Virus record (IMG/VR): IMGVR_UViG_3300029156_000006
Location: 1-40,867 of that record
Strand: one strand, 5' to 3'
Length of the DNA stretch: 40,867 nt
Origin: a virus
Taxonomy: Duplodnaviria > Caudoviricetes
The position numbers and the translations under genes are program-made. Positions 1 to 32,472 of the stretch are shown here, piece after piece. A model generated the notes under the pieces. That model worked only from the letters and a program-made list of their open reading frames with translations, was not told the origin of the DNA and made no database searches. How positions within the stretch are numbered: position 1 is the stretch's first letter; each line of letters opens with the position of its first letter.

Positions 1-63
1 GTTTCCCAGTCACGATCTGGTTTGGCTGGATATCAACCCTGAGAACTAACTTTCCCTTTCCAT

Positions 64-5596: not shown

Positions 5597-8229
5597 GCAA
5601 GCAAGCAAAACGCCGGAAAATTGCCAAGCTCCGTGCAGAAATGTACGCCGCACCGTGGGCTATCGACGCGCGTGCGCTGGGCGGACTTGAGGAAGCCATC
5701 GAAGCTGGCGACCTAGAATCAATACGTGCGTCGTTGTCACTAGGTAGTGACAGTGAAACGACCACGCGCATTGTGGACGGCATCGCCATCATTCCGATTA
5801 CGGGAGTCTTGCGTGATGCGGTCGATTATATGGTGCGATGGGGCGGTGCATCGTCCTACCAGTTGATAGAAAAAGGGTTCAACCAAGCGATGGAAAACGC
5901 CCAAGTCAAGGGTGTGCTGTTCTATTGCGATACTCCGGGTGGCTCTGCCATTGGTTGCAAGCGAGTTGCCGACCGTGTCCACGAATCTCGTGGAGACAAG
6001 CCTATTCGTGCTTATGTGCAAGGCATGTGCGGCTCAGCAGGTTTCTACATCGCATCTGCCTGCGATCGCATCGAGTCAACAGCTGACTCGTTAGTTGCCA
6101 GTATTGGCACCATTTACCCACACCAAGAGTACAGCGGGATGCTGAAAGAGTTTGGCGTGGGTGCAAAAGTATTCACGAACAAAGACTCACCCAAAAAGGG
6201 CCACGGCAACATCTACGAGCCGTTGACCGAGCAAGCCCAAGAAACCATCCAGCAATTTGTTGAGTCCTATGGCCAGTCGTTCATTAACGACGTGGCGCGT
6301 TATCGAGGCATCAAGCCAGAGGAAGTTGTGGCCAAATACGGCCAAGGCGATTCGATGCGTGCTGATGTGGCAGTTAGCAAGGGCGTAATCGATGCCGTTG
6401 TATCCAATTTTGAAGATTCCATGGAATCCATGAGAAACACCGTGGGCGGCGACCCAAATGTTAAGTCGTCGTCTACACCCGTCGTTTCAAGTACCTCAGT
6501 AAGGAGAAGTAAGATGAACGAGCGAATCAAAGCTCAGTTGTTTGCGTTGGGTCTGATTGATTCGCTCGACGCACCGGATGCCGTTTGCCAATCAGCGCTA
6601 AACGCATGGTTTGCGTCTCGCGGCGACAACCTTCCAAGCGACGAATCGCAGATCCTCGCTTCCCTCCAAAAGCTACGCGCTCAAGATGACGCGCCCGATG
6701 ATGAGGACGAAGAGGAAGAATCCGGCGACGAAGAAAAGGAAGCCGGCGACAAGGCCGCTACCCCAACGGCCAATAACGTGCAGCGTGCTCACGAAAGCGA
6801 GCAATCCGAAGCCCGTTTAGAGGCGCTGAAGTCCTCAGCAGCCTTAATCAACGGGATTACCGGCGAGACGTCTATCAGTGCAGAAATGGTACTGGAGGCT
6901 CACGAAAAGAAGCTCGACGCGAAAGGTGCGACCAAGATGTGGAACGAAAAACTAGCGGGCGACGAATCTCCACTACCTACCGCGCGCGTTAAGGGTGAAG
7001 GCGCAGACCGCTTCGCTAATGACGTTGTAGACGCGATGATCTATCGCGCCAGCAGCAACCCCACGATGGAGATTTCCGATGGGGCTTCCAATCTCGTCAA
7101 CCTTCCCTTGTGGGCTGTTGCAGGTAAGTGCTTGGAGCAGTCGGGCGTTAAGGTCGACATGTTTGGCGACAAAGAGTACATCGCCGAGATGGCTATGCAG
7201 ATGGGAACGCCCGGTGCACGACACACGTTCTTTTCTGAAAAAGAAGGCCGCCAGTACATCCAGGCATCCGGTACGCCGAATGCACGACCCGGCGACTTTC
7301 CGAATATCCTTTCCAGCTTGTCGAATAAGTTTCTCGACACGATCGGACTCGACGACGACTACAGCTATCAGCAAGTTTCGGCGCTACTCCCTGGTGGATT
7401 ATCCGACTTTAAGCCTGCCATGATGGTAAACAAAGGTATTGTCGAGGAACTTGACGAGCTGGAAGACGCCGAGCAGTTCAAGGATATCGGCCTCAGCGAG
7501 GAGGTACTCTCCTACATCTTCCTGCGACGTTTCGGTAACAAGTGGGGCTGGACTCCCGTGATGGTCGCCAACGACGACATGGGTGCGTTCGTGGAAGGCA
7601 TGTTGGGCCTAGAAGAGGCTTGGCAGGTTACACAAAACCGACTCGTCACCGACCGATTTACGTCGAACGAAAACTTGCTTGACGGAAACCCGCTGTTTGC
7701 TAATCGTGCGGATACTGGAGTAGGTGCCAACCCAGCCACCAACGACAACGACGTTACGTCTGGAGCAGCTCCTAGTGATGCTCAATGGGCAGCCATGGAG
7801 ACTAAGTACGCTGATATCGGCGGTATCGCAACAGGCCGACGCGTGCGTGGTTCACTCAATACGTGCTTCACCCCAACGGGCACCAATGCCCAAGAAGCAC
7901 GCCGAACATTCCTGCCACTTAATTCGGGCGGCATGGAAATGAAGGTTGCGAATACCACGCAAAACATCGGTCTCTATCGCGGTGAAGTGCAGGTAATTCC
8001 AGAAAGCGAATTGCGCGTTGCTTCCTCGAATGTTTGGTACGGCCTACGAAATCCTACGCGGCTAAATACGGCTACTGTTGTCCGTGGTTATTTCAATGGC
8101 TTCGGCACCGCAGGTCGCCGTGAGCGTTGGTACGACCCACAAACAAAGACGACCTACGTATCGATCGAAGGCCGTATTGCCGTCGCTGTCAAAAACTGGA
8201 GGTACGCAGTACGCAACGCTGGCGCTTAA
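5593..8229 (+). CDS. Fused S49 prohead protease - scaffold - major capsid protein
   Basis: DTPGG, CGSAGFYIASAC and ASIG S49 motifs; acidic linker; C-terminal capsid region (DFPNIL, LSDFK, MVANDDMGAF, NWRYAVRN). Confidence 0.88.
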   Translation: MSKQAKRRKIAKLRAEMYAAPWAIDARALGGLEEAIEAGDLESIRASLSLGSDSETTTRIVDGIAIIPITGVLRDAVDYMVRWGGASSYQLIEKGFNQAMENAQVKGVLFYCDTPGGSAIGCKRVADRVHESRGDKPIRAYVQGMCGSAGFYIASACDRIESTADSLVASIGTIYPHQEYSGMLKEFGVGAKVFTNKDSPKKGHGNIYEPLTEQAQETIQQFVESYGQSFINDVARYRGIKPEEVVAKYGQGDSMRADVAVSKGVIDAVVSNFEDSMESMRNTVGGDPNVKSSSTPVVSSTSVRRSKMNERIKAQLFALGLIDSLDAPDAVCQSALNAWFASRGDNLPSDESQILASLQKLRAQDDAPDDEDEEEESGDEEKEAGDKAATPTANNVQRAHESEQSEARLEALKSSAALINGITGETSISAEMVLEAHEKKLDAKGATKMWNEKLAGDESPLPTARVKGEGADRFANDVVDAMIYRASSNPTMEISDGASNLVNLPLWAVAGKCLEQSGVKVDMFGDKEYIAEMAMQMGTPGARHTFFSEKEGRQYIQASGTPNARPGDFPNILSSLSNKFLDTIGLDDDYSYQQVSALLPGGLSDFKPAMMVNKGIVEELDELEDAEQFKDIGLSEEVLSYIFLRRFGNKWGWTPVMVANDDMGAFVEGMLGLEEAWQVTQNRLVTDRFTSNENLLDGNPLFANRADTGVGANPATNDNDVTSGAAPSDAQWAAMETKYADIGGIATGRRVRGSLNTCFTPTGTNAQEARRTFLPLNSGGMEMKVANTTQNIGLYRGEVQVIPESELRVASSNVWYGLRNPTRLNTATVVRGYFNGFGTAGRRERWYDPQTKTTYVSIEGRIAVAVKNWRYAVRNAGA

Positions 8230-10778: not shown

Positions 10779-11411
10779 ATGCCCACTCTCAATTATTCAG
10801 TAGCTATCTCCGGATTAGGAGGTAGCATCAGTCGCAATATTCCACGCACAGAAGATGGCGGCGGAAGTAATGAGATTGCAGTTGGAGTCGGATACTCGGG
10901 CACGCTTACCACGCGGACCGATGACGAAACGGGATCTCTCACTCTTGCGTCTGGCCACGGTATCACCACTGCTCAAGTCATCGACCTGTATTGGTCGGGC
11001 GGCGCACGGTATGGAATTACAGTAGGCACCGTAGCGACCAATGTCGTTCCAATCGGAGCTGACAACTCTGGTACGGGGGATGTGTTGCCTACTGCCGCCA
11101 CGGCCATCGTTGCATCGCCCAGGGTTACGTTCAACTGTGCTATTGATGGTGACGAGCTAGCGCTGCTGGGAGTGCAGCAGGCTTACGCATCCAACACGGA
11201 AGCTGCCAACTCTCATATTTCATTCCTCGACAGTGGCAGTGCAGAGATCGAAGAATTCGCTCTTTCGGCTAACGTTCCCCGCACATTTGACATCACGGGT
11301 GGTGATACCAACGGATTCACCGGCAATCCTATTACTTCGGCAGTTGTTAGCAACGGTTCAGCAACAAATGCCGCCACACTCAAAATACTTTGGGTGCAAG
11401 ATTCTACCTAA
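10779..11411 (+). CDS. Beta-rich virion protein, paralog 1
   Basis: Gly/Thr/Ser-rich; collinear with 11445-12071. Confidence 0.7.
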   Translation: MPTLNYSVAISGLGGSISRNIPRTEDGGGSNEIAVGVGYSGTLTTRTDDETGSLTLASGHGITTAQVIDLYWSGGARYGITVGTVATNVVPIGADNSGTGDVLPTAATAIVASPRVTFNCAIDGDELALLGVQQAYASNTEAANSHISFLDSGSAEIEEFALSANVPRTFDITGGDTNGFTGNPITSAVVSNGSATNAATLKILWVQDST

Positions 11412-11444
11412 CGGCTAGTACACAACACAAAGGGAAGATTTTAG

Positions 11445-12071
11445 ATGCCGTCGATAAACAATGCAGTTAGCATGACTGGCATGGGTGTAAGTATCTCATC
11501 AGATACTGCGCGCACGGCTGATGGAGGTGCAATCAAAGAGATCGCCGTCTCCAAGGGGCAGTCGGGCGTATTGTCTATGCGTACAGATGACGACACTGGC
11601 ACCATAGAGATGGATTCTTCCAACCACGGCTTTGTAGCCCTCGACAATATTGACGTTTACTGGTCTGGAGGATTGCGTCGATCGATGCAAGTCACTTCGG
11701 TAGCAGACTCTACTGTAAGTATCAATTCTGGTTCAGGCGATGTATTACCTCCCGCGACAACATCTGTCGTGGGATCAGAGCCTGTCGACTTCAACTGTGC
11801 TATTGATGGTGATGAATTATCTATTATTGCTGCTGAGCAAGCATACGAATCCACCACAGAAACAGCAGATTCTTACTTAATTCTTTCAGATGTGTCGGTT
11901 TCCATAGCCTCATTCACACTAAAACCCAACACGCCCCGCACATTCGACATCACGGGTGGTGATACCAACCCGTTCACTGGGAATCCCATCATAGCTGGGA
12001 AAATCAGCAACGGCTCAGCAATAAACGACGCCACATTAAAGCTGATGTGGATTCAAGATTCTACACCTTAG
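11445..12071 (+). CDS. Beta-rich virion protein, paralog 2
   Basis: Shares RTDD.TG, D.YWSGG, GDVLP, FNCAIDGDEL, PRTFDITGGDTN, FTGNPI and ATLK..W.QDST with paralog 1. Confidence 0.7.
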   Translation: MPSINNAVSMTGMGVSISSDTARTADGGAIKEIAVSKGQSGVLSMRTDDDTGTIEMDSSNHGFVALDNIDVYWSGGLRRSMQVTSVADSTVSINSGSGDVLPPATTSVVGSEPVDFNCAIDGDELSIIAAEQAYESTTETADSYLILSDVSVSIASFTLKPNTPRTFDITGGDTNPFTGNPIIAGKISNGSAINDATLKLMWIQDSTP

Positions 12072-18997: not shown

Positions 18998-19255
18998 ATG
19001 CGCGAAGAAAACGAGAGTAAGCCGCCCACAAGAACACAGGCGGAGATAGCGGCCTACATCGATCTGTGCCTACACAGCAACGGTTGTCCGCCTTCGATTC
19101 GGCAGATAGGCGATAGGTTCGGCATAGGGAATCCGAACGGCGTGAAGTACCACCTAGAGGCTATGCGCTCGAAGGGGATTGTCGACTGGCAGCCGGGTAA
19201 GTCTCGCACGCTGCGCTTGCTCCCGGGGATTCCGGTGGTGGGGGAGGTGGGTTAA
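18998..19255 (+). CDS. LexA-like winged-HTH DNA-binding protein lacking the peptidase domain
   Basis: TRTQ..I..GCPPSIRQIG..FGI..V..HL.A...KG.....PGKSRTL, ending IPVVGEVG. Confidence 0.85.
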   Translation: MREENESKPPTRTQAEIAAYIDLCLHSNGCPPSIRQIGDRFGIGNPNGVKYHLEAMRSKGIVDWQPGKSRTLRLLPGIPVVGEVG

Positions 19256-19450
19256 TTACCTATCACCTAAGTCCCTTACAAGCTTTTTTGTGCGCTTGTC
19301 TGATTTATGGTCAATAACGACAGCGACTGCATGTATCACGCCAGGAACCCAAAGGATTAAAGTCAAAACTATGTTCAATAATGCTTGCACAGGTTTTCCG
19401 CAAATCAATACAGCAACGGGTGGTAGCAGTATGGCTAATAGTATCATCAT
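19256..19450 (-). CDS. YqaE/Pmp3 (UPF0057) family small membrane protein
   Basis: LAILLPPVAV..LNIVLTLILWVPGVIHA signature. Confidence 0.85.
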   Translation of the reverse strand: MMILLAILLPPVAVLICGKPVQALLNIVLTLILWVPGVIHAVAVVIDHKSDKRTKKLVRDLGDR

Positions 19451-19812: not shown

Positions 19813-20042
19813 ACTCAGAAATTCAACTCTTGGAACCTGGCTACTATCACGCCAATCGTATCAGCGATGGCGAAGAAGTGATCCTTTGGGTTTACAAGTT
19901 GCCTAATGGAGAGAAGTCTTTTTCGTGCAGTAGGCAGATGTTCGCAGGCTTGAATCCATCGAACTACGAGTTAGTGGGTCCGGTGCCTAATCCGTGTGAA
20001 TTGGAATCGCTCACCAACTGCTGTAGTGAGGTGGTGGCATGA
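19806..20042 (+). CDS. Hypothetical protein
   Basis: G-rich RBS; overlaps both neighbours. Confidence 0.55.
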   Translation: MLNSEIQLLEPGYYHANRISDGEEVILWVYKLPNGEKSFSCSRQMFAGLNPSNYELVGPVPNPCELESLTNCCSEVVA

Positions 20043-20776
20043 GCGAAAATTCTGCACTAGTGAAAGCTCTCGCCAAAGCCCAAGGCGAGTTCCCTGAAAT
20101 CCCCAAGGACCGCACCAACGAATACTTCAAGTCGAAGTACGCCACACTTGATGCCGTTATCAGCGCGACACGCGATCCCCTGGTCAAAAACAATATCGCT
20201 GTGACCCACGCATTCACCAGTAACGAAAACGGCCCCTGCGTTACAACAACCCTACGCCACGAGTCTGGCGAAACAATCGAATCATCTATTCCCGTAAACG
20301 CAGGCGACAAAATGCAGGCACTGGGCTCTGCGATCACCTACGCCAAGCGATACAACCTCTGTGCATTACTCAACGTCACCGCAGACGAAGACGACGACGG
20401 CAACGCTGCTCAGCCGCAGAAGGATACCAAGCGGAAATCGCCAGCAAAAAACGCAGCCAAAAAGGCTCCAGCTAAGTCCGAAAAGAAACCGCTTACAAAC
20501 GAAGAACTAATCGAACGTGCTACAGGTTCTTTCAAGAGAGCTGAAAACCATGAACAACTCATGGAGGCGATTAACAAAGTCGGAGATAGCCGCGATTTCT
20601 TCAAGGAGTTTGAAGCGTATTCACAAGCATTGGAAGCTGCCGAAGCTAGGGCTGGCGAACTGAAGTGCAGCGAAGAAGAGATTAACCACACCAAGCGGCG
20701 AATTAGTTGGTATCTCGACGCACACAGTAAAAGCCCCAAGAAGCAACTTGACGATCAGGCTGAGGAATTGTTTTGA
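20039..20776 (+). CDS. erf: ERF-family ssDNA-annealing recombinase
   Basis: KSKYATLD, LRHESGE, QALGSAITYAKRY and DEDDDGN motifs. Confidence 0.92.
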   Translation: MSENSALVKALAKAQGEFPEIPKDRTNEYFKSKYATLDAVISATRDPLVKNNIAVTHAFTSNENGPCVTTTLRHESGETIESSIPVNAGDKMQALGSAITYAKRYNLCALLNVTADEDDDGNAAQPQKDTKRKSPAKNAAKKAPAKSEKKPLTNEELIERATGSFKRAENHEQLMEAINKVGDSRDFFKEFEAYSQALEAAEARAGELKCSEEEINHTKRRISWYLDAHSKSPKKQLDDQAEELF

Positions 20777-21183: not shown

Positions 21184-21906
21184 GTGGCCAAGGAAACGGT
21201 ACAAGCCAAGAAGCTACAGGTTGAGCGTCTGCAAACTCGCGTCTCCACCGATAGCACCTATATCGAAGAGCTCGCCGACCGCATGAAGTCGGGTGCGGCC
21301 TTCCCTCCGATCACGGTAGTACGCAATGGCTCGGGCGCCTGGTTGGCTGACGGCATTCATAGATTGGATGCTGCGATCATGGCTGGCAAGAAAATCGAGG
21401 TCAACTACATAGCTGGCGACCGCAAGAAAGCAGTCGAGATAGCTTGTGGTGCCAACCAATCTCACGGGCTCCGCAGGTCAAACGCAGACAAACGCCGTGC
21501 TGTCGGCATGGCCCTTAAAGAATTCAGCGGCAAGAGTGACCGAGCCCTTGCAGATATGTGCGGAGTAGGACGCCCGCTAGTTGCGGAGCTGCGTTCCAGT
21601 CAGGTGGCAGAAAAGCCACCTGGAAATTCCACCCGCACTGGAAAAGACGGGAAAAACTATAAGGTACCGGTGCCAAAACCGCCAACTAAGCCCAGTTCGG
21701 CAGCGACCGATTTCGACCCTGGGAACCTGCCACCGGCAGCGGCCACCAAGCCGCCAAAACCCGGCAAGGCGACAGTTACAGTCAAGCAGCGGAAGGCATG
21801 CCACACACACCTTGGCGGGCTGATACGTTCTTTGCAGTCAGTTGGTATCTACGACGAGTTCCTTGGAGCTCTCAATCAGATAGCGGAAAGGCTCAAGCAG
21901 ATATGA
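21184..21906 (+). CDS. ParB N-terminal-like domain plus HTH protein
   Basis: FPPITV..WLADGIHR..AN..HGLRRSNADKR..SDRALADMCGV; AGGAG RBS before the GTG at 21184. Confidence 0.75.
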   Translation: MAKETVQAKKLQVERLQTRVSTDSTYIEELADRMKSGAAFPPITVVRNGSGAWLADGIHRLDAAIMAGKKIEVNYIAGDRKKAVEIACGANQSHGLRRSNADKRRAVGMALKEFSGKSDRALADMCGVGRPLVAELRSSQVAEKPPGNSTRTGKDGKNYKVPVPKPPTKPSSAATDFDPGNLPPAAATKPPKPGKATVTVKQRKACHTHLGGLIRSLQSVGIYDEFLGALNQIAERLKQI

Positions 21907-22787
21907 AGTGCAAGTTGTTCGACATAGCCGCCTTTGGAAGACGAGAATCTGTATTGTGCCTGCCAGGTCGCGAGAAGCTTATCCGCTCTGCTCGGGCAAA
22001 TATAAGAAAGTCTGTTTTCTTAGACGCAAGTGAGATTAACGAAGCACATAATTCATGGCTCAACACTGGGGGAGATTTTGCAGATGACCTAAGGCGGTGC
22101 ATTCCACCCTGGGAAAACCTATTTATTTATGGTGGCTACGAAATATCTCCTGATGGTCACAAAGTCGAGTCGGGAGTGCACTGCTTGACAAGCAACCGAT
22201 ACACGAAGGATGAAATACCACAGGGAAACGATGGGATCCAAGGTGATGTGGCGGAAATAATACGCGAAGGCTCACGCATGGTGGTAATGACCTCTTGGAT
22301 GCGCATTGAAAAAATGCGCAGCAAGGTTTTCTTCATGCTACCCCACACCGCGGTACTAAGGGACGACGGATCGTATGTTAGTAGCTGGGGCGCGGACTAC
22401 AGGCAATTCGGGTTCAACGATTCGAAGGACAACTGGTGGTCTTTGGCACTTTTCACATGCCAGCTTGTTCATTGCAAGAATATCATCACACAGGAACACC
22501 CGCCATATAGACCAACAATGCCCAAGGGAAAGCGTAATAAGTCCCCTAAAATTAAGTACCACACACTGCGTATCAGCAATAGCTTAGTGAAAAGCGAAAG
22601 CAGGGATTCAACCAACAAAGGGCAGGAAAAGCCTAAGCATATATGTCGTGGTAAATTCGCTCATTACACCGAAGAGAAAAAGCTCTTCGGCAAGTACACG
22701 GGTACTTTCTGGCGGCCAATGCACATCCGCGGCAGCGCCAACCACGGCATTGTGGGAAAGGACTACGCTATGGGGGACACAGCATGA
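21903..22787 (+). CDS. Conserved-type phage hypothetical protein
   Basis: ATGA overlap; C-terminal H-x-x-RG..W...H.RG motif seen in many phage proteins. Confidence 0.6.
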   Translation: MKCKLFDIAAFGRRESVLCLPGREKLIRSARANIRKSVFLDASEINEAHNSWLNTGGDFADDLRRCIPPWENLFIYGGYEISPDGHKVESGVHCLTSNRYTKDEIPQGNDGIQGDVAEIIREGSRMVVMTSWMRIEKMRSKVFFMLPHTAVLRDDGSYVSSWGADYRQFGFNDSKDNWWSLALFTCQLVHCKNIITQEHPPYRPTMPKGKRNKSPKIKYHTLRISNSLVKSESRDSTNKGQEKPKHICRGKFAHYTEEKKLFGKYTGTFWRPMHIRGSANHGIVGKDYAMGDTA

Positions 22788-25990: not shown

Positions 25991-26022
25991 GAGCGCACGA
26001 CGCGCAGTTGAACGGACTCACT

Positions 26023-26080
26023 AAAGGGGGCAGTCGCAACCCTCACTTGATAGACACCCAGTAACGCGGCTGCCCCTTTT
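26023..26080 (+). terminator. Long-loop hairpin followed by a T run
   Basis: GGGGCAGTCGC / GCGGCTGCCCC stem, 28-nt loop, TTTT. Confidence 0.4.
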
Positions 26081-26197
26081 GGTTTCAAACCCCAGTACGG
26101 TACGACGCATCGAAGTGTATCGAAACAGCACAAGAAAACCACGGTATTAAACCAAAACGCAAATAGCGAAAATCGCTATCTAACCATAAAGAAATCA

Positions 26198-26989
26198 ATG
26201 AATGAGTTGGCTTTATTTGCCGGAGCTGGCGGAGGATTGCTCGGTAGTCGATTGCTCGACTGGCGTACAGTCTGCGCCGTCGAGATTGACAAGTATTGCC
26301 AGCGAGTCTTGCTCCAGCGCCAACGTGACGGCCACCTCGTGCGATTCCCCATCTGGGACGACGTGCGAACTTTCGATGGCAACGAGTGGTGCGGTCGAGT
26401 CGATGTCGTTACCGCAGGATTTCCTTGCCCGGCATTCAGCCAAGCGCGAGGTGGAAAGAACCCCGACCCGTGGGCAAATACAAAAAACATGTGGCCACAC
26501 ACTTTTCGCATCATCAACGAAGTCAAACCGGCGTGGTGCCTACTGGAGAATGTGCCGGGACTTCTTTCAGGAAGTCATGGTTACTTCGGCAAGGTACTCA
26601 GAGACATGGCCAAGGGCGGGTTTAGTATTGCTTGGGATGTGCTATCGGCGGCAGACGAAGGCGCGGATCACATCCGCGACAGGTTGTGGATACTTGGCTA
26701 CTCCAACAGCAACTGCGAACCAGACGTCTCCGTCAATGATGAAGCATCCAGGTTGCCGGTTGCTTCTGCCAACACCAGTAGCGACTGCAGCCATAAGTAC
26801 ATCAGGCCCCACAGAGTCGAAGAAGAGATACAAGGAGCACGGAATTACTGGGAGGTTGAACCCAGATTGGCAAGAGTGGCGAATGGGGTGGCCGATTTCA
26901 TGGACCGCTCAAAAGCCATTGGAAACGGACAAGTTCCAGCAGTGGTTGTCCGCGCATGGCAAGAATTGAGCAAGCAAGTCAGTAACTGA
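26198..26989 (+). CDS. C5 cytosine DNA methyltransferase, large polypeptide
   Basis: Motifs I (LFAGAGG), IV (GFPC), VI (ENV), VIII (HIRDR) and X (IGNGQVP). Confidence 0.9.
   Translation: MNELALFAGAGGGLLGSRLLDWRTVCAVEIDKYCQRVLLQRQRDGHLVRFPIWDDVRTFDGNEWCGRVDVVTAGFPCPAFSQARGGKNPDPWANTKNMWPHTFRIINEVKPAWCLLENVPGLLSGSHGYFGKVLRDMAKGGFSIAWDVLSAADEGADHIRDRLWILGYSNSNCEPDVSVNDEASRLPVASANTSSDCSHKYIRPHRVEEEIQGARNYWEVEPRLARVANGVADFMDRSKAIGNGQVPAVVVRAWQELSKQVSN
26202..26969 (+). CDS. Nested +1-frame ORF: putative second methyltransferase polypeptide carrying motif IX
   Basis: 255-codon open frame with LATPTA/LPTPVA repeats and GRLNPDWQEWRMGWPISWT. Confidence 0.6.
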   Translation: MSWLYLPELAEDCSVVDCSTGVQSAPSRLTSIASESCSSANVTATSCDSPSGTTCELSMATSGAVESMSLPQDFLARHSAKREVERTPTRGQIQKTCGHTLFASSTKSNRRGAYWRMCRDFFQEVMVTSARYSETWPRAGLVLLGMCYRRQTKARITSATGCGYLATPTATANQTSPSMMKHPGCRLLLPTPVATAAISTSGPTESKKRYKEHGITGRLNPDWQEWRMGWPISWTAQKPLETDKFQQWLSAHGKN

Positions 26990-27032
26990 AATACCGCCAG
27001 CCAGTAGCCCACACCAACTTAGAGAACCGAGA

Positions 27033-27278
27033 ATGAGCATGAAAGAAGTTCAGGCGATGGTGACCACAAGGAAAGTCTCAACGGAAGTTGAAGTAGTAAT
27101 TCCCGGAGATACGTTCCACGTCGCTAAGGGCGTGGAGGAAGCCATCGACATTACTCTAGGAGATGATGGGATTGTCTATTGCAGCTACTGCCCAGACAAC
27201 AAGACGGCTAGCAAAATCGAAAAGTCATTCACCTACGACGAGTTTGTTAGGCGGATGAAGATTCTTATTCAGTTGTAA
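27033..27278 (+). CDS. Hypothetical protein
   Basis: ORF bounded by junction motifs. Confidence 0.6.
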   Translation: MSMKEVQAMVTTRKVSTEVEVVIPGDTFHVAKGVEEAIDITLGDDGIVYCSYCPDNKTASKIEKSFTYDEFVRRMKILIQL

Positions 27279-27339
27279 TCACGATACCGAACACGTCTTT
27301 TGAAGCTACTAATCAACAGTATCAAAGGAGATTTAGATC

Positions 27340-27648
27340 ATGGCATCAAGCCACCACGGAGAACGTAGACCCGATTCCAGAGACTTTGAGAATCACCTAA
27401 TGCGACGATTCGCAGAGCAAGAGGAAGGCACAGCGAACCGCCAGTGGCCAGAAGGACGTATCTCAGGTGACGACGATGGCGAGCTAGCGTTTGTCGTCGC
27501 AGCCAAGGATGGCCTTGTGCGTCTCGACTTCGGCAAACCAGTCGAGTGGATGGCAATGCCACCAGAGCAGGCGGTGCAAATGGCCCAACTTTTAATAAAG
27601 CAAGCTCGCAGTGTCGCCACCAAGCCGCTGCGAATTTCGATCAATTGA
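27340..27648 (+). CDS. Hypothetical phage protein
   Basis: AAGGAG RBS; P.G..S.DDDGEL.F..V.LDFGKPVEW pattern. Confidence 0.7.
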   Translation: MASSHHGERRPDSRDFENHLMRRFAEQEEGTANRQWPEGRISGDDDGELAFVVAAKDGLVRLDFGKPVEWMAMPPEQAVQMAQLLIKQARSVATKPLRISIN

Positions 27649-27697
27649 AATACTCAAACAAGCCATTGAAGCTACTAATTAGGAGTATGAAAGCAAA

Positions 27698-27952
27698 ATG
27701 CCAGTACCTACTGGGGAAACGCTGATTGAAGCGCTCGGCGATTGGCGTACCAAGCACATTTGGCTAGAGCGGCTGAAGATTGAAGAATACAACGGCGAAG
27801 AGGACGCGCCCGAGCTAGAAAAAGCCGCCTACGAGTGCGACGAAGCCGAGCGGTGGTTGGTGACTCTTTATCGGCAGGCGACTAACTACAAACCTCATGT
27901 CGGACATTCGTGCCACTCCGAGCACACCGACGCAAATACTGAATCAGGGTAG
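27698..27952 (+). CDS. Hypothetical protein
   Basis: AGGAG RBS lying inside a junction motif. Confidence 0.6.
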   Translation: MPVPTGETLIEALGDWRTKHIWLERLKIEEYNGEEDAPELEKAAYECDEAERWLVTLYRQATNYKPHVGHSCHSEHTDANTESG

Positions 27953-27956
27953 CAGC

Positions 27957-28322
27957 ATGGACCAAGAAACACGGATAAAAGCGAAGGTGAAGGCCCGTGA
28001 AGATGCCCGCGAGATTGCTGAAATGCTCTCTTGGGGGAACGGAACCGGCGCAGACTACGCCGAGTCATTCCTGAAAGAGCTTCGGTCTAGGTTGCCAGTG
28101 AAGGAATCAGCGAAACCGCCGACACCACTGGCACCTATTCCAATAGCAAGACTTGGCGCAGTACCCATGCCGTTCGGAGAGCACCGAGACAAGCCGCTTG
28201 ATGATGTTCCGTTGCAGTACCTTGAATGGCTCTGCGGCAAGCAGGAGGAATTTTTGCAGGGACTGAGAGCGTATCTCAAACATCCTGAATTAGAAGCCCG
28301 GCGACGAGCTTATACGCCCTGA
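27957..28322 (+). CDS. Protein with a C-terminal DUF3820-like motif
   Basis: MPFGEHRDKPLDDVPLQYLEWL resembles MPFGK.KG..L.DVP..YL.WL. Confidence 0.6.
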   Translation: MDQETRIKAKVKAREDAREIAEMLSWGNGTGADYAESFLKELRSRLPVKESAKPPTPLAPIPIARLGAVPMPFGEHRDKPLDDVPLQYLEWLCGKQEEFLQGLRAYLKHPELEARRRAYTP

Positions 28323-28348
28323 ACCAGTAGAGAGAGCGAGGAAATCTG

Positions 28349-28543
28349 ATGCTAGGAAAACTACTTTCTAAGACAGTGAAAGCCGTCACGTTCCCGATTG
28401 ATGTAGTTGAACGTACTGGGGATTGGCTCTGCGGGGGCGACGGCACGAAAGAAGAGCAGATTCAGAACCGCAAACTTGGCGCCAATGGCATGTCACAACT
28501 ACGTGACATTGTGACCGACACGCTAGAAGAGTTGGACGACTAA
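28349..28543 (+). CDS. Hypothetical protein
   Basis: GAGG RBS. Confidence 0.6.
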   Translation: MLGKLLSKTVKAVTFPIDVVERTGDWLCGGDGTKEEQIQNRKLGANGMSQLRDIVTDTLEELDD

Positions 28544-28577
28544 TACACCAAACAACCATTAAAGAAAGGGAACCAAA

Positions 28578-28820
28578 ATGCAAATAGAAGGCAATGCAGA
28601 AGAGATCGGCTTGCTGCTAGGTGCAGTTGCGGGAGGAGATAAGCCAACTTCAACAGAACAATCTGGCTGGACCAAAACCAGCGACGGAAAACTTAGCGGT
28701 GAAGGATTTTATATAACACTTAACGAAAACCCAGCAGATACAGACTTTCCATCAATATGGAAAGACCCGGTTGACGTGTACTGCGGCTACCACCTCAAAA
28801 TTCCCACCCATCCGCGGTGA
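28578..28820 (+). CDS. Hypothetical protein
   Basis: AAGGGA RBS. Confidence 0.55.
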   Translation: MQIEGNAEEIGLLLGAVAGGDKPTSTEQSGWTKTSDGKLSGEGFYITLNENPADTDFPSIWKDPVDVYCGYHLKIPTHPR

Positions 28821-28862
28821 ACCAACAAAACCACAGTATGAAACCAACAACTAATAGATTTC

Positions 28863-29093
28863 GTGGGTTTTGCAGTGCATCCATTTCACAAGCTACAACG
28901 CGAGATAGGAGACCGCATGAGGGAGGCCGAGCAGGGCGCCGAAGTGCGAGGGTTTGTTGGTGGCGTAGTAGTGGCCCTGTTGCTTTTTTGTCATACCAAT
29001 CAGCCGCATGGATGTTCAGCAGTGCGGACGAAACGAGAGAGCCGAGCCGCCCACCCCATAATTATCAAGTGCGCTCATACTACGAAGAGATAG
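28863..29093 (+). CDS. Hypothetical protein (frame uncertain; alternative 28838-29098)
   Basis: Two competing + frames; this one has a hydrophobic segment. Confidence 0.3.
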   Translation: MGFAVHPFHKLQREIGDRMREAEQGAEVRGFVGGVVVALLLFCHTNQPHGCSAVRTKRESRAAHPIIIKCAHTTKR

Positions 29094-29100
29094 TTTAGCC

Positions 29101-29155
29101 CCACCGGGGTAAGGGGCTCCACGCCCCGTGTGCTTCGGCACCGATGCCCCGGTGG
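29101..29155 (+). ncRNA. Small three-way-junction structure
   Basis: P1 CCACCGGGGTA/TGCCCCGGTGG, P2 GGGGC/GCCCC, P3 GTGC-TTCG-GCAC (cUUCGg). Confidence 0.5.
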
Positions 29156-29219
29156 ATTTGAAATACGGTAACTAGGTAGACCGCCCCAACTTTCACAGCC
29201 GAAATGGAGTATCAAAGCT

Positions 29220-29510
29220 ATGAGCAAAGAATTCCCCAACCATCCCTCTAAGGGAGGACGCAATGCGATACCAACTGACGAAGCTCTCGCCAATCGACCT
29301 GCAGCTCCACAGGGTAGCGGTCCAAAGCAAGCGTCGTCGATATCGGTAGAAGTTTCTGGGTTAATGCAAACAGCCGTTGATATCACTGAGGATATTACAG
29401 GAGCCGATTTAGCAAACATGCCCGAGCACTGTTCAAAGCTGATCGTGAAGTTGAAGAAACATACAGAAAATATGTGTCAGTACATGGCCAATTCACCATT
29501 CACGAAATAG
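29220..29510 (+). CDS. Hypothetical protein
   Basis: GGAG RBS; TAG stop inside a junction motif. Confidence 0.5.
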   Translation: MSKEFPNHPSKGGRNAIPTDEALANRPAAPQGSGPKQASSISVEVSGLMQTAVDITEDITGADLANMPEHCSKLIVKLKKHTENMCQYMANSPFTK

Positions 29511-29554
29511 TCCACGTAGGTATCACAGCAAAACTTCAAGAATGGAAATACGGT

Positions 29555-30193
29555 ATGAAAGCTGGCATGAGAGTATTGCTGTCCAACAACACAGGACCCA
29601 TCGCCAAGCACTTGCTGGCGAAGTACCCCGATCAGATCGGGCACTGCATATCGCCTGGAGGGTGGCGAAAGCCATTCCCTTACTACGTGGCAGAAAATGG
29701 CCGATTTAATTCTGGTTGGAGCGAAGATGTGTATTTTAAGCACTTGGAAAAGGTCAGCGAACATCCTATAGCACCCCAATGGCTATCAGTGCTAGATGTA
29801 GTGGGCGATCACGCCAAGACGTTAGCCGAGTGGAAGATGTGGTATGGCGAACTGCGCAATTACGGTTGGCCGCTAGCGTTTGTCGCGCAGGACGGTTGCG
29901 AACCCTCCGATGTACCCAAAGAAGCTGAAGTTGTTTTTATTGGAGGCACGACGACATGGAAGCGGCGCAACATTTACAAGTTCTGCGATTATTTCCCGCG
30001 CGTGCATGTTGGGAGAATCAACACGGCGAAGTGGCTCAAGGTGTGCCATGATGCAGGCGCAGAAAGCGTAGACGGAACGGGCTGGTTTCGCGGAGACCGC
30101 GTGCAACTCAGCTGGCTTGTGAAATTTTTGGAGGGCGAACACAGTCCTAATCCGCGCCCACTATTAGACAAATTAAATACAGAAAGTGAGTAG
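29555..30193 (+). CDS. TGT/DpdA-like TIM-barrel protein (putative base-exchange enzyme)
   Basis: AENGRF, LDVVGD, VAQDG, FIGG, VHVGRIN and ESVDGTGW match the tRNA-guanine transglycosylase-like motif order; start at 29555 or 29567. Confidence 0.6.
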   Translation: MKAGMRVLLSNNTGPIAKHLLAKYPDQIGHCISPGGWRKPFPYYVAENGRFNSGWSEDVYFKHLEKVSEHPIAPQWLSVLDVVGDHAKTLAEWKMWYGELRNYGWPLAFVAQDGCEPSDVPKEAEVVFIGGTTTWKRRNIYKFCDYFPRVHVGRINTAKWLKVCHDAGAESVDGTGWFRGDRVQLSWLVKFLEGEHSPNPRPLLDKLNTESE

Positions 30194-30563
30194 ACCAGCT
30201 ATGTTGATTTACTTAGTGGACGACGATCCTGGCAACTGTGATATGTACCCGCAGCTTTGGGATTCTCACGATACTAGAACATTTGACAGCCTATTCGATG
30301 CTGTAGGCGAGAAGGCACCAGACCTGCTAATAATTGATATTTCAGCAGTTTGTCCTTTAGGCGACATATCGCACTCTGCTTACTCACCTATCTGTTCTTA
30401 CATCGATCGTTTTCCCCATGTTCCGGTACATATCACATCGTTTGTGTCGTCGAACTCAAGACAAGATGTTGTAGACGATGTTATGCAGGCGATGCCTGAT
30501 GCGATTGTTACGCATGGCACGTTAGATAGAGCAGAAATTCGTATCAAGCAATTGGTAGCTTGA
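30186..30563 (+). CDS. Stand-alone response-regulator receiver (REC)-like domain
   Basis: LIYLVDDD, PDLLIID and VPVHITS; conserved Lys not evident. Confidence 0.7.
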   Translation: MSRPAMLIYLVDDDPGNCDMYPQLWDSHDTRTFDSLFDAVGEKAPDLLIIDISAVCPLGDISHSAYSPICSYIDRFPHVPVHITSFVSSNSRQDVVDDVMQAMPDAIVTHGTLDRAEIRIKQLVA

Positions 30564-30585
30564 AATACTCCCCGCAGGTAGATCA

Positions 30586-30834
30586 ATGACATCAGAACTT
30601 AGAGGTCGAAGGCGTAAAACAGTATCCTCGCACAAGTCGGATGCTAGGCATCGAGCTAAAAGCCACAAGAGATTCAGTGTGGAGGCACGTTATATTGGTT
30701 CGCTCCCTAGCTTCCTGTCGCGATCGAGCAACTGGACCATCTGGGCCAAATATGCGACCAAGAAAAGCGCGGTGAACGCAGTAGCGGGACTGAGCAGAAG
30801 TAAGAAGAACTGGGAATTTAGAATCGTGTCTTAA
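30586..30834 (+). CDS. Basic hypothetical protein
   Basis: ORF bounded by junction motifs. Confidence 0.55.
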   Translation: MTSELRGRRRKTVSSHKSDARHRAKSHKRFSVEARYIGSLPSFLSRSSNWTIWAKYATKKSAVNAVAGLSRSKKNWEFRIVS

Positions 30835-30867
30835 CACCCGCGACAAGAATCGAACGGAGGTTTTATA

Positions 30868-31200
30868 GTGGGAAATAGTAAGGCCCAAGAAAACTACGAC
30901 GTCGAGTGTTTTCGAACTTTGAACGTGGGTAGATTTCGTTACGGCGTCTGGGTGATGACCCGAAAAACGGGTTCGCGAGGTATGTTTGTTCATGGTGACC
31001 GTTGTGAGGTCCAGGCACCACATTGGACTGTCGAAGAACTTAGGGACGGTGAAGCTGAAGCTGTCCCTATTTCGTGTGAACAGGCACTTAAAATAGTGTC
31101 AAATTGGCCAGAAGTGCAAACGGAAATGCAGAAATGTTTCGACAGGCATATCATTCAGAATACCCCGGCTAGCCATGAAAGCGAGGCAAGCAATGAGTGA
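30868..31200 (+). CDS. Hypothetical protein
   Basis: GGAGG RBS before the GTG. Confidence 0.6.
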   Translation: MGNSKAQENYDVECFRTLNVGRFRYGVWVMTRKTGSRGMFVHGDRCEVQAPHWTVEELRDGEAEAVPISCEQALKIVSNWPEVQTEMQKCFDRHIIQNTPASHESEASNE

Positions 31201-31408
31201 TGCAGAATTACAGTTAGGTACTTTCATCGCTGAGACCAGCCTGCGAGCGGAACTGCGAATTTCAGGGGTTGGGAAAATAGCGGCAGCAGTGCAAGGCAAG
31301 CCATCGTGGGAGTGGGTGGTTGTGAGAGAGTGGGAGCACCCAGAGCAGCCTACGGTTGAAGATTTGAATAATATCCGTAGGGCTTTTGGCATTACCGAAA
31401 CGCCCTGA
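31175..31408 (+). CDS. Hypothetical protein, degenerate XRE-HTH-like
   Basis: REWEHPEQPTVEDLNNIRRAFG; start at 31175 or 31193. Confidence 0.5.
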   Translation: MKARQAMSDAELQLGTFIAETSLRAELRISGVGKIAAAVQGKPSWEWVVVREWEHPEQPTVEDLNNIRRAFGITETP

Positions 31409-31430
31409 AATAGCTTAGGAGAGTAGCAAG

Positions 31431-31610
31431 ATGAGCAAAAACTTGTTGTATGTCGCTCTGGGGTCTGTGACCACATCGTCGTGGTGGTGGGTGTACCTAG
31501 ACTATCCAAGCCGCCCTTCTGCAGTTGTCTTTGTGCTTGCTCTAGTGGGAAGCATAGGGGTTGTTGGCGTTATTGCTAGAGAAACCATGATCCTAAACGG
31601 TTGGGACTAA
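31431..31610 (+). CDS. 59-aa two-TM membrane protein (not in the ORF track)
   Basis: AGGAG RBS; MSKNLLYVALGS..SAVVFVLALVGSIGVVGVIA..; flanked by two junction motifs. Confidence 0.6.
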   Translation: MSKNLLYVALGSVTTSSWWWVYLDYPSRPSAVVFVLALVGSIGVVGVIARETMILNGWD

Positions 31611-31633
31611 CTACTCCATCGAGGTAGACAGAC

Positions 31634-31816
31634 ATGCTCTTTAGTAAAAGAAAAGCACTAGCCGCAGAAGTAGCTAAGAAGCTGGTGGAAATGAAAATCG
31701 ATCGGTTTCCAACTAGCGTTTTCAATGTGATTACTGCCTTGGATTCCATGGGGCACCTTAACGAGTCCGCACAAAACCCCAGTATCAAACCCGACAACAA
31801 TACCGAGACCAAGTAA
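31634..31816 (+). CDS. Hypothetical protein
   Basis: GAGG RBS inside a junction motif. Confidence 0.55.
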   Translation: MLFSKRKALAAEVAKKLVEMKIDRFPTSVFNVITALDSMGHLNESAQNPSIKPDNNTETK

Positions 31817-32082
31817 TGCAGGAAGAAAAAAACAACCCGTTCTTTCCGCTTGCGGAGATGTTCCCAGATGAGCGATTCGATGAGATAGGACAGCTATTTG
31901 ATAGCGGGAGTGGGTTGGATATAGGCGAAGATCAGTGGAGGCTAAATGGCCTCGCCGTCTTACTGGGTTGCTTAGAAAATTACGATGGCGAGGGGCCGGA
32001 TCCTGTAGACATAGAATCACCCCTAATCTGTAAAATCCGCGCTTTGGAAGCGGCATACCAGCTTGGACGAGATAGCGCTTAA
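31816..32082 (+). CDS. Acidic hypothetical protein
   Basis: TAATG coupling at a junction motif. Confidence 0.55.
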   Translation: MQEEKNNPFFPLAEMFPDERFDEIGQLFDSGSGLDIGEDQWRLNGLAVLLGCLENYDGEGPDPVDIESPLICKIRALEAAYQLGRDSA

Positions 32083-32125
32083 CCACAACACTTCGGAAGT
32101 ATCAAGCACCACTAGGAAGGCCACT

Positions 32126-32359
32126 ATGAACAAGGATGCTCTGACCCCATACGTTCCGGTTTGCAGTAAATGCAAGCAGGAGTCCGCGCCGTTGTTCAAT
32201 GGCGTCTGTCAGCACTGCGAAGGACGCGGCGACGACCTTTGGGTGGTCACTGATTTTGGCAAGCCACGCAAATACAGCAAACTAGGCGTTACTGTGACAG
32301 CGGAGCGTCATGGCGTTGGAAGGGTGCGCCTGCTGGTAGAGCGACTCAGAATTGCTTGA
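32126..32359 (+). CDS. Small Zn-finger protein
   Basis: AGGAAGG RBS; CSKC..CQHC. Confidence 0.55.
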   Translation: MNKDALTPYVPVCSKCKQESAPLFNGVCQHCEGRGDDLWVVTDFGKPRKYSKLGVTVTAERHGVGRVRLLVERLRIA

Positions 32360-32423: not shown

Positions 32424-32472
32424 AAAAGCCGCACGATTGTTACCGCGATGGTGACAGCCGTGCGGCTTTTTT
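32424..32472 (+). terminator. Terminator/attenuator hairpin in the late leader
   Basis: AAAAGCCGCACG..TTGTTACC-GCGAT-GGTGACAG..CGTGCGGCTTTTTT. Confidence 0.75.

What the first reader, a model, noticed from the sequence alone, without database searches (positions are those of the whole stretch)
26159..32107. TAC-N9-GTA dyad at almost every gene junction: a cassette-like array of small accessory genes
I count nine exact copies, all at or near gene ends or starts: TGAAATAC cgccagcca GTAGC (26987), GAAGCTAC taatcaaca GTATC (27302), GAAGCTAC taattagga GTATG (27668), GCAAATAC tgaatcagg GTAGC (27932), TGAAATAC ggtaactag GTAGA (29159), TTAAATAC agaaagtga GTAGA (30173), TGAAATAC tccccgcag GTAGA (30561), CTAACTAC tccatcgag GTAGA (31607) and AACAATAC cgagaccaa GTAAT (31796). 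About 1.5 would be expected by chance in 6 kb at uniform base composition. Same-spacing variants occur: TAG-N9-GTA (29508, 31411), TAG-N9-CTA (26164, dyad preserved), TAC-N9-CCAT (27651, 28544, 31161), MAC-N9-GTAT (28824, 31770, 32087) and CAC-N9-GAAT (30835). Some are in tandem (27651+27673, 31770+31801). Stop codons often lie in the left arm, RBS or start in the spacer or right arm, and the right flank is often T(C/G)AAA(G/C)C. Fixed spacing with a free spacer fits a dimeric protein site. Placement between unrelated single genes recalls integron cassettes, though these are not attC sites, or mycobacteriophage L5 stoperators. Hypothesis: an undescribed site-specific gene capture and shuffling system, with tandem sites as empty cassettes. 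No recombinase is visible in the window.
Basis: partly seen in the sequence, partly recalled or inferred. Interest (0 to 1): 0.85.

Follow-up and report, generated by a model that had tools for sequence, protein, structure and literature searches.

The report
Rigid dyad between phage accessory genes
A short two-armed DNA signal with rigid spacing sits between nearly all the small accessory genes of this uncultured phage and is not repeated at its other gene junctions; it likely marks joints where single genes are swapped in and out by an enzyme the phage does not appear to encode.

Summary
The motif is real. TAC-N9-GTA occurs 10 times in 26159-32107 against 0.70 in shuffles. A leave-one-out profile scores at least 10 bits at 12 of 18 array junctions, 1 of 46 other junctions and 5 of 1239 junctions in related loci. 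Refined form: (TGAAA)TAC(Y)-N7-R-GTA(T/G)(CAAAGC), one strand only, no hairpin. It is not attC, host dif, or a LexA or sigma-70 site.

The window is a lambda-like, probably planctomycete phage with no tyrosine or serine recombinase found. No relative covering the array could be fetched, so gene swapping at these sites is unproven here. Support is indirect: one gene is flanked by a 14-nt repeat running into the spacer. An unrelated phage (L159) has its own 11-7-11 junction dyad and a duplicated gene whose identity begins and ends inside the sites.

Best reading (0.45): crossover sites for a recombinase supplied from outside. An operator array remains a strong rival (0.3). This scan has already noted junction dyads of other sequence in other phages. 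PeSLs and pdif modules are the closest published kinds.

The parts
26020..26083 (+). Terminator-like hairpin followed by a T run; 5' boundary of the array
   Evidence: 18-nt arms, 83% complementary; -31.4 kcal/mol; function inferred
26127..26185 (+). Tandem sites (core triplets at 26132 and 26164, 32 bp apart) at the head of the array; 26164 is the only site that folds as a hairpin on both strands
26198..26989 (+). C5 cytosine DNA methyltransferase, first array gene
   Evidence: PF00145 4e-32
26987..27013 (+). Exact site; TGA stop is the outer end of the left arm
27280..27328 (+). Tandem: weak site 27285 and exact site 27307 (22 bp apart)
27340..27648 (+). 102-aa gene of unknown function, flanked by an exact 14-nt direct repeat (27300, 27666) that covers the left arm and 4 spacer bases
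   Evidence: homologues
27646..27694 (+). Tandem sites 27651 and 27673 (22 bp apart)
27932..27958 (+). Exact site; TAG stop in the right arm
28539..28565 (+). Variant site TAC-N9-CCAT
28819..28845 (+). Variant site AAC-N9-GTAT; spacer 8/9 identical to those of 26132 and 31770
29097..29157 (+). Intergenic G+C-rich branched hairpin just before site 29164; no Rfam or tRNA match
29159..29218 (+). Tandem sites 29164 (exact) and 29197 (33 bp apart)
29503..29562 (+). Tandem sites 29508 and 29541 (33 bp apart); an 11-nt repeat shared with 29160 brackets gene 29220-29510
29555..30193 (+). DpdA-like tRNA-guanine transglycosylase homologue; start codon in a right arm
   Evidence: 33-36% identity to annotated phage proteins; phrog_15826
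30173..30199 (+). Exact site; TAG stop in the right arm
30561..30587 (+). Exact site; TGA stop in the left arm
30830..30856 (+). Weak variant CAC-N9-GAAT (leave-one-out 5.1 bits)
31156..31182 (+). Variant TAC-N9-CCAT; ATG in the right arm
31406..31432 (+). Variant TAG-N9-GTA; RBS-like spacer
31607..31633 (+). Exact site
31765..31822 (+). Tandem sites 31770 and 31801 (31 bp apart) inside the 3' end of gene 31634-31816
32082..32108 (+). Last clear site, AAC-N9-GTAT
26198..32359 (+). Array of 18 co-oriented, mostly small genes, mostly separated by site-bearing gaps; core replication genes upstream mostly overlap by 1-4 nt
32424..32470 (+). Terminator-like hairpin followed by a T run; 3' boundary of the array
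   Evidence: 21-nt arms, 86% complementary
20039..20776 (+). ERF single-strand annealing protein; candidate for sequence-independent exchange (rival 2)
   Evidence: PF04404 4e-26
18998..19255 (+). LexA DNA-binding-domain-only protein; candidate binder (rival 1), untested
   Evidence: PF01726 1e-18

Best explanation
A rigidly spaced, one-directional dyad, (TGAAA)TAC(Y)-N7-R-GTA(T/G)(CAAAGC), sits at nearly every junction of an 18-gene accessory array and likely serves as the docking and crossover site of a site-specific recombinase that would be supplied by the host or another element. Shown: the motif, its rigid spacing, its polarity, its confinement to the array, the lack of hairpin structure, and no PF00589 or PF00239 match in the window. 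Inferred: two protein subunits bind the arms and exchange strands across the 7-bp free core, the geometry of tyrosine-recombinase core sites. Each mobile unit would run from one right arm through the ORF to the next left arm, which explains why stop codons sit in left arms and some start codons in right arms. Differing 7-bp cores would limit self-deletion of the array and favour exchange between like sites, or the enzyme would be mismatch-tolerant like IntDOT. Tandem sites would be scars of lost genes. No enzyme, excised circle or comparative breakpoint was found for this motif.
For: Enrichment and confinement. Rigid spacing: extended arms match 8 times at N9, once at N5, never at N6-8 or N10-13. 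Seven free bases inside a conserved Y/R pair; IntDOT has a 7-bp overlap with variable sequence between imperfect inverted core sites (PMC2817482, passages). Not a hairpin: z < -2 for 3 of 46 strands, no site-specific covariation. Stop codon in the left arm or core at 10 sites and in the right arm at 3; ATG in the right arm at 4. Gene 27340-27648 is flanked by an exact 14-nt repeat of left arm plus 4 spacer bases, and those two sites are the most similar pair (25/31). Analogue in phage record G253 (L159), which carries a homologue of that gene: 11 junction sites of an 11-7-11 dyad with recurring cores, and a 66-aa gene present twice (195/201 nt) whose identity starts in a right arm and ends one base into the next spacer.
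Against: No recombinase in the window. No joints or variants in the only two runs holding the DNA, both source-like contigs. The motif is not clustered around homologues of array gene 27340 in 62 loci, in 49 other viral records or in 251 Planctomycetia genomes (34 matches against 32 control matches), so there is no sign of a shared cassette pool. Adjacent sites are no more alike than permuted order (p 0.33); adjacency of long shared words gives only p 0.063; spacer families are not significant (p 0.18 and 0.07). The integron rule of complementary arms around each gene is not met (4.9 against 4.6 of 12). The G253 motif is a different sequence whose profile does not pick out the window's sites. 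In G253 the duplicated unit starts 4 bases into the right arm rather than in the spacer. Many sites are degenerate in one arm.
Confidence: 0.45

Rival explanations
1. The sites are operators or transcription road-blocks for a dimeric regulator (stoperator- or SPBRE-like) that silences or tunes the accessory operon. Any gene exchange at them is incidental.
For: One orientation, intergenic, often overlapping ribosome-binding sites and starts. Tandem spacings of 22, 22, 31, 32, 33, 33 bp are close to 2-3 helical turns. Sites cluster at the head of the array after a terminator-like hairpin. The phage encodes a LexA-DBD protein and a ParB-like protein. Precedents: stoperators (PMC6550527, passages); MrpR, a dead tyrosine recombinase binding SPBRE (PMC10516654, passages).
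Against: Sites are confined to one 6-kb array, with none scoring >=11 bits in the control or replication regions (a 10.4-bit hit at 19321 is at chance level). Stoperators and SPBRE lie across the genome and at lytic promoters. Host lexA upstream regions hold no TAC-N9-GTA (0 of 30). One site per gene flush with stop codons is more than repression needs.
Confidence: 0.3
2. The motif is a 'linker' relic. One junction sequence (stop context, RBS gap, ATG-AAA-GC start context) was copied again and again by ERF-mediated annealing at short homologies, as proposed for PeSLs, with no site-specific protein.
For: The phage encodes ERF and a RuvC-like resolvase. Arms double as stop and start contexts. 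Three sites share spacer plus right arm and two share 25/31 bases. Related phage L139 shows repeated RBS-stop-start junction words. PMC2839356 (abstract and discussion) leaves open whether PeSL exchange needs a dedicated protein.
Against: Annealing needs contiguous homology, yet the middle 7 bases are free while both flanks and the spacing are kept. The right arm is kept as GTATC or GTATT where it is not a start codon. The profile is rare at 1239 junctions of related loci that have the same translation signals.
Confidence: 0.2
3. The pattern is chance plus stop-codon and RBS composition.
For: Variants were hand-picked; one exact copy lies inside a gene.
Against: best gapped junction word among 123 loci; 7 hits against 0-3 in 49 records.
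Confidence: 0.02

Closest known systems
PeSL regulatory cassettes of T4-type phages (PMC2839356; abstract and discussion read)
   Same: Repeated element between non-essential small genes in a plastic region; proposed gene gain/loss points; no dedicated recombinase identified.
   Different: PeSLs are sigma-70 promoters plus terminator stem-loops. This site has neither and is a short dyad with a free core.
pdif sites / dif modules of Acinetobacter plasmids, XerC/XerD (PMC6449649; passages read)
   Same: Simple two-armed sites bounding accessory genes, with a variable centre, conserved inner palindrome and recombinase supplied by the host.
   Different: pdif is 11-6-11 and dif-like. Here the core is 7 bp, all sites face one way, and candidate host dif sequences are conventional TAA-N6-TTATGTTAA, unlike this motif.
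Integron cassette arrays and CALINs in phages (PMC9892861; passages read)
   Same: Co-oriented single-gene units, one site per junction, stop codon often within the site, no integrase in the phage.
   Different: No attC hairpin, no paired RYYYAAC/GTTRRRY boxes at the junctions, no arm-complementarity rule.
IntDOT core sites of CTnDOT (PMC2817482; passages read)
   Same: Imperfect inverted arms around a 7-bp overlap that can vary between sites.
   Different: IntDOT acts on one element's att sites and is encoded by it. Here there are about 22 sites, a different sequence and no integrase.
Mycobacteriophage stoperators (PMC6550527) and SPbeta SPBRE/MrpR (PMC10516654); passages read
   Same: Many short intergenic protein sites, oriented with transcription.
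   Different: Those lie across the genome, include lytic promoters and have a known repressor; stoperators are 13-bp asymmetric words. This is a gapped dyad limited to one array.

Membership tests
Integron attC / CALIN | Imperfect hairpin on the bottom strand | tested here: not met
   z < -2 for 3 of 46 strands, median +0.6; no covariation
Integron attC / CALIN | RYYYAAC ... GTTRRRY boxes bounding each site | tested here: not met
   5 and 8 scattered boxes in the array, not paired at the junctions
Integron attC / CALIN | Integron integrase nearby | tested here: not met
   No PF00589 match in the window at E <= 1; not required for CALINs
Integron attC / CALIN | Co-oriented single-gene cassettes, one site per junction | tested here: met
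   16 of 18 junctions score >=6 bits leave-one-out
Xer dif/pdif | 28-bp 11-6-11 site resembling host dif | tested here: not met
   7-bp free core; dif-like candidates in 3 of 5 planctomycete genomes are TAA-N6-TTATGTTAA (candidates picked by eye, query pattern recalled)
PeSL | Sigma-70 promoter plus terminator stem-loop at each element | tested here: not met
   2 promoter-like sites against 6.2 expected, 5 terminator-like against 9.0
PeSL | Gene gain/loss breakpoints at the element in close relatives | not testable with these tools
   Close relatives found do not cover the array
Tyrosine-recombinase core site | Inverted arms around a 6-8 bp overlap at fixed spacing | tested here: met
   TAC(Y)-N7-RGTA, rigid spacing; outer arms only weakly symmetric
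Tyrosine-recombinase core site | Cognate recombinase and strand exchange within the overlap | tested here: inconclusive
   None in the phage; no joints in source-like contigs; one internal duplication ends in the spacer
Stoperator / SPBRE operator | Genome-wide sites including the early control region | tested here: not met
   18 of 19 hits >=11 bits lie in the array
Stoperator / SPBRE operator | Binding by the phage repressor | not testable with these tools
   Needs DAP-seq or EMSA
Host LexA box | Same motif upstream of host lexA | tested here: not met
   0 of 30 lexA upstream regions hold TAC-N9-GTA

The most novel reading that the evidence does not exclude
Planctomycete phages carry hairpin-free, integron-like single-gene cassette arrays built on simple arm-7bp-arm sites, each lineage with its own site sequence (this window; G253), which a host-encoded or helper tyrosine recombinase loads and reshuffles in trans.
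Probability: 0.3. Interest if true: 0.8.

Novelty: new variant of a known kind. Interest (0 to 1): 0.5.

Why it matters
How phages gain and lose single accessory genes with clean gene-boundary breakpoints is a long-standing question (conserved linker sequences versus illegitimate recombination, as discussed in PMC2839356). A short, countable site at nearly every junction of a compact 41-kb phage gives a directly testable substrate: find the protein that binds it and test for site-dependent exchange. If a trans-acting recombinase is confirmed, this is a new cassette system with mismatch-tolerant or address-coded sites. If it is an operator, it is a new planctomycete phage regulon. The cargo (C5 methyltransferase, DpdA-like transglycosylase) is of the DNA-modification, anti-restriction type (inference from the family names).

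Tried and rejected
Relatives by single protein: RuvC-like found none; trypsin-like 3 loci at 25%; helicase 8 loci at 36-51%, no motif cluster. RuvC alignment: 80 viral and 21 genome loci, no cluster of the motif. DNA pattern scan of viral contigs with a consensus: 30 hits, none an array; that pattern was stricter than the window's own sites, so it is a weak test. The same holds for (9 of 201 genomes, single chance hits), which was therefore repeated with a pattern that has exact matches in the window. Terminase alignment: 3 close relatives whose contigs end before the array; 0 of 401 Planctomycetota genomes. G718 and G719 looked promising, but their hits are not junction arrays. G253-type pattern: 4 viral hits and 2 of 251 genomes, all single (the two genome loci were not inspected). 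Reads: X1 and X2 are source-like contigs with no joints; X3 holds only short pieces, so absence of circles means nothing. blastn of the array against 50,697 phage records matched only methyltransferase pieces. Rfam (16000-40867) and ARAGORN found nothing. The 294-aa replication-region protein resembles AcrVA2-like clusters, not a recombinase (lead only). A general junction-motif screen of 110 loci ranked L159 first and the window 11th; it penalises gapped motifs and had no shuffle control. Sigma-70 promoter rejected (right arm lacks the -10 T); ECF and sigma-54 spacing judged not to fit from recalled consensus. Literature searches for a described system of this kind returned integron papers or nothing relevant; the library lacks most subscription papers, and no supplements were read.
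Full report
Setting. The window is a whole IMG/VR-type virus record of 40,867 bases. It has lambda-like head genes (gpA terminase, portal, S49 protease-capsid), a LexA-DBD-only protein, ERF, an HNH nuclease, a ParB-like protein, a helicase, a RuvC-like resolvase, and later trypsin-like, thioredoxin-like and holin-like genes. Terminase homologues at 74% and 43% are named Planctomycetota and Planctomycetaceae, and a homologue of array gene 27340 is named from Rubinisphaera italica, so the host is probably a planctomycete. Two Logan contigs start at window positions 21-22, just before the small gene preceding the terminase, and one runs about 363 bases past the window's end. I infer a near-complete genome of about 41.2 kb, although CheckV says 40%. 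No PF00589 or PF00239 match exists in the window at E <= 1.

Observation. TAC-N9-GTA occurs 10 times in 26159-32107 (nine at junctions, one inside the methyltransferase gene). Shuffles give mean 0.70 and maximum 4 of 1000, and it is the best dyad over all triplets and gaps, with 0 of 100 shuffles as good. A profile from 22 hand-listed sites gives 19 plus-strand hits at >=11 bits, 18 in the array, and none on the minus strand (in-sample). Left out in turn, 12 of 18 array junctions score >=10 bits, against 1 of 46 other junctions and 5 of 1239 junctions of related loci. The array (18 genes, 26198-32359) lies between two terminator-like hairpins.

Anatomy. The consensus is (TGAAA)TAC(Y)-N7-R-GTA(T/G)(CAAAGC). 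The last spacer base is a purine in 22 of 22 sites, TAC is followed by a pyrimidine in 9 of 12, and extended arms match only at N9 (8 times; once at N5). There is no site-specific complementarity and no folding except at 26164, so the site is read as double-stranded DNA (inference). Upstream stop codons lie in the left arm or core at 10 sites and in the right arm at 3; ATG starts lie in the right arm at 4 (gene calls from my own simple ORF caller). Six tandem pairs are spaced 22, 22, 31, 32, 33 and 33 bp. Gene 27340-27648 is flanked by an exact 14-nt repeat covering left arm plus four spacer bases, and gene 29220-29510 by an 11-nt repeat. Taken over all junctions, however, neighbours are not more alike than permuted order (p 0.33; p 0.063 for long shared words), and spacer families are not significant.

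Relatives. The motif was not found as a cluster elsewhere. It is absent as a cluster from 62 loci carrying homologues of gene 27340, from 8 helicase relatives, some with the same gene order, from 49 other whole viral records (7 hits in the window, 0-3 elsewhere; the two best followed up were not arrays), and from 251 Planctomycetia genomes (34 matches against 32 controls by my count of the table). Only 50 of about 130 intended handles could be searched. Close relatives exist (over 30 terminases at 70-81%), but the three reachable contigs do not include the array. The decisive breakpoint test therefore could not be run, and reads gave only source-like contigs without joints.

Analogue. One of the 62 loci, L159 (record G253, 50.8 kb, 77% complete, unrelated terminase type), has its own junction dyad, TGAGTACTAAC-N7-GTT.GAAG.CA. 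It occurs at 11 junctions in two accessory blocks; six seed sites score 14-24 bits leave-one-out. There too the left arm often begins with the TGA stop and the right arm often ends at the start codon. A 66-aa gene occurs in both blocks (L159:1212-1412 and 5944-6144; 195/201 nt). Identity begins four bases into the upstream right arm and ends one base into the downstream spacer. G253 has no PF00589 match but encodes a resolvase-family protein. This shows a site-bounded gene copied as a unit in a similar layout. It is a different sequence, and neither motif detects the other, so it is analogy, not homology.

Mechanism. Rigid spacing with a free 7-bp centre argues for two protein subunits rather than simple homology. 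That geometry matches tyrosine-recombinase cores such as IntDOT's, which tolerates mismatched overlaps (PMC2817482, passages). Confinement to one array and placement flush with gene ends favour a crossover role with the enzyme in trans (0.45). An operator or road-block array (0.3) fits the polarity and helical phasing, with precedent in stoperators (PMC6550527, passages) and SPBRE/MrpR (PMC10516654, passages), but not the confinement; it is not the host LexA box (0 of 30 upstream regions). A linker relic spread by ERF annealing (0.2) fits the phage's gene content but not the free centre. Chance is excluded.

Comparison. It works most like PeSL-bounded modules (PMC2839356, abstract and discussion) and pdif modules (PMC6449649, passages), and is laid out like a CALIN (PMC9892861, passages). 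It fails the membership tests for all three: no promoter or stem-loop, not dif-like, no attC hairpin or boxes. Five literature searches found no description of this motif, within a library that lacks most subscription papers. Earlier AI notes of this scan describe junction dyads of other sequence in SPbeta-like and other phages, including planctomycete phages. These are unchecked leads. They show the kind recurs in this scan, while no note matched this sequence or this genome.

Verdict. The feature is real and well supported, a new variant of a known kind, with its mechanism open. Interest 0.5; the novel case (trans-acting cassette system) has probability 0.3 and interest 0.8.

Noticed in passing
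L159 (record G253): 908-2239 and 5924-6912: A cleaner 11-7-11 junction dyad at 11 accessory-gene junctions, with recurring 7-bp cores and a duplicated 66-aa gene bounded by the sites; deserves its own follow-up.
   Followed up: partly
window 29097-29157: Intergenic branched G+C-rich hairpin inside the array; no Rfam or ARAGORN match.
   Followed up: partly
window 18998-19255: LexA homologue of only 85 aa that stops where the cleavage-site linker would be (recalled feature); lacks the protease domain.
   Followed up: partly
window 21903-22787: 294-aa protein whose nearest atlas clusters carry AcrVA2-like (PF26125) on 15-29% of members; lead only.
   Followed up: partly
window 19321-19360: Two weak motif-like sites 21 bp apart ahead of the replication operon; scores near chance level.
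   Followed up: partly
window 30201-30563: 120-aa array protein whose start looks like a response-regulator receiver domain (recalled resemblance; no Pfam or NCBIfam hit).
   Followed up: no
window 10779-12071: Two tandem paralogous tail-region genes, 69% identical over about 280 nt.
   Followed up: no
L223-L252, lexA upstream regions: Several planctomycete lexA upstream regions share GTAC/GAAC/GACA words followed by RGTATATT, a possible LexA box and -10 element.
   Followed up: no
L162 flanks; L139 15000-19400; L091 and L176 junctions: Other repeated junction words in related phage loci (a 15-nt repeat flanking the gene 27340 homologue in L162; repeated RBS-stop-ACC-start words in L139; GCTAAC-led words in L091 and L176).
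   Followed up: no
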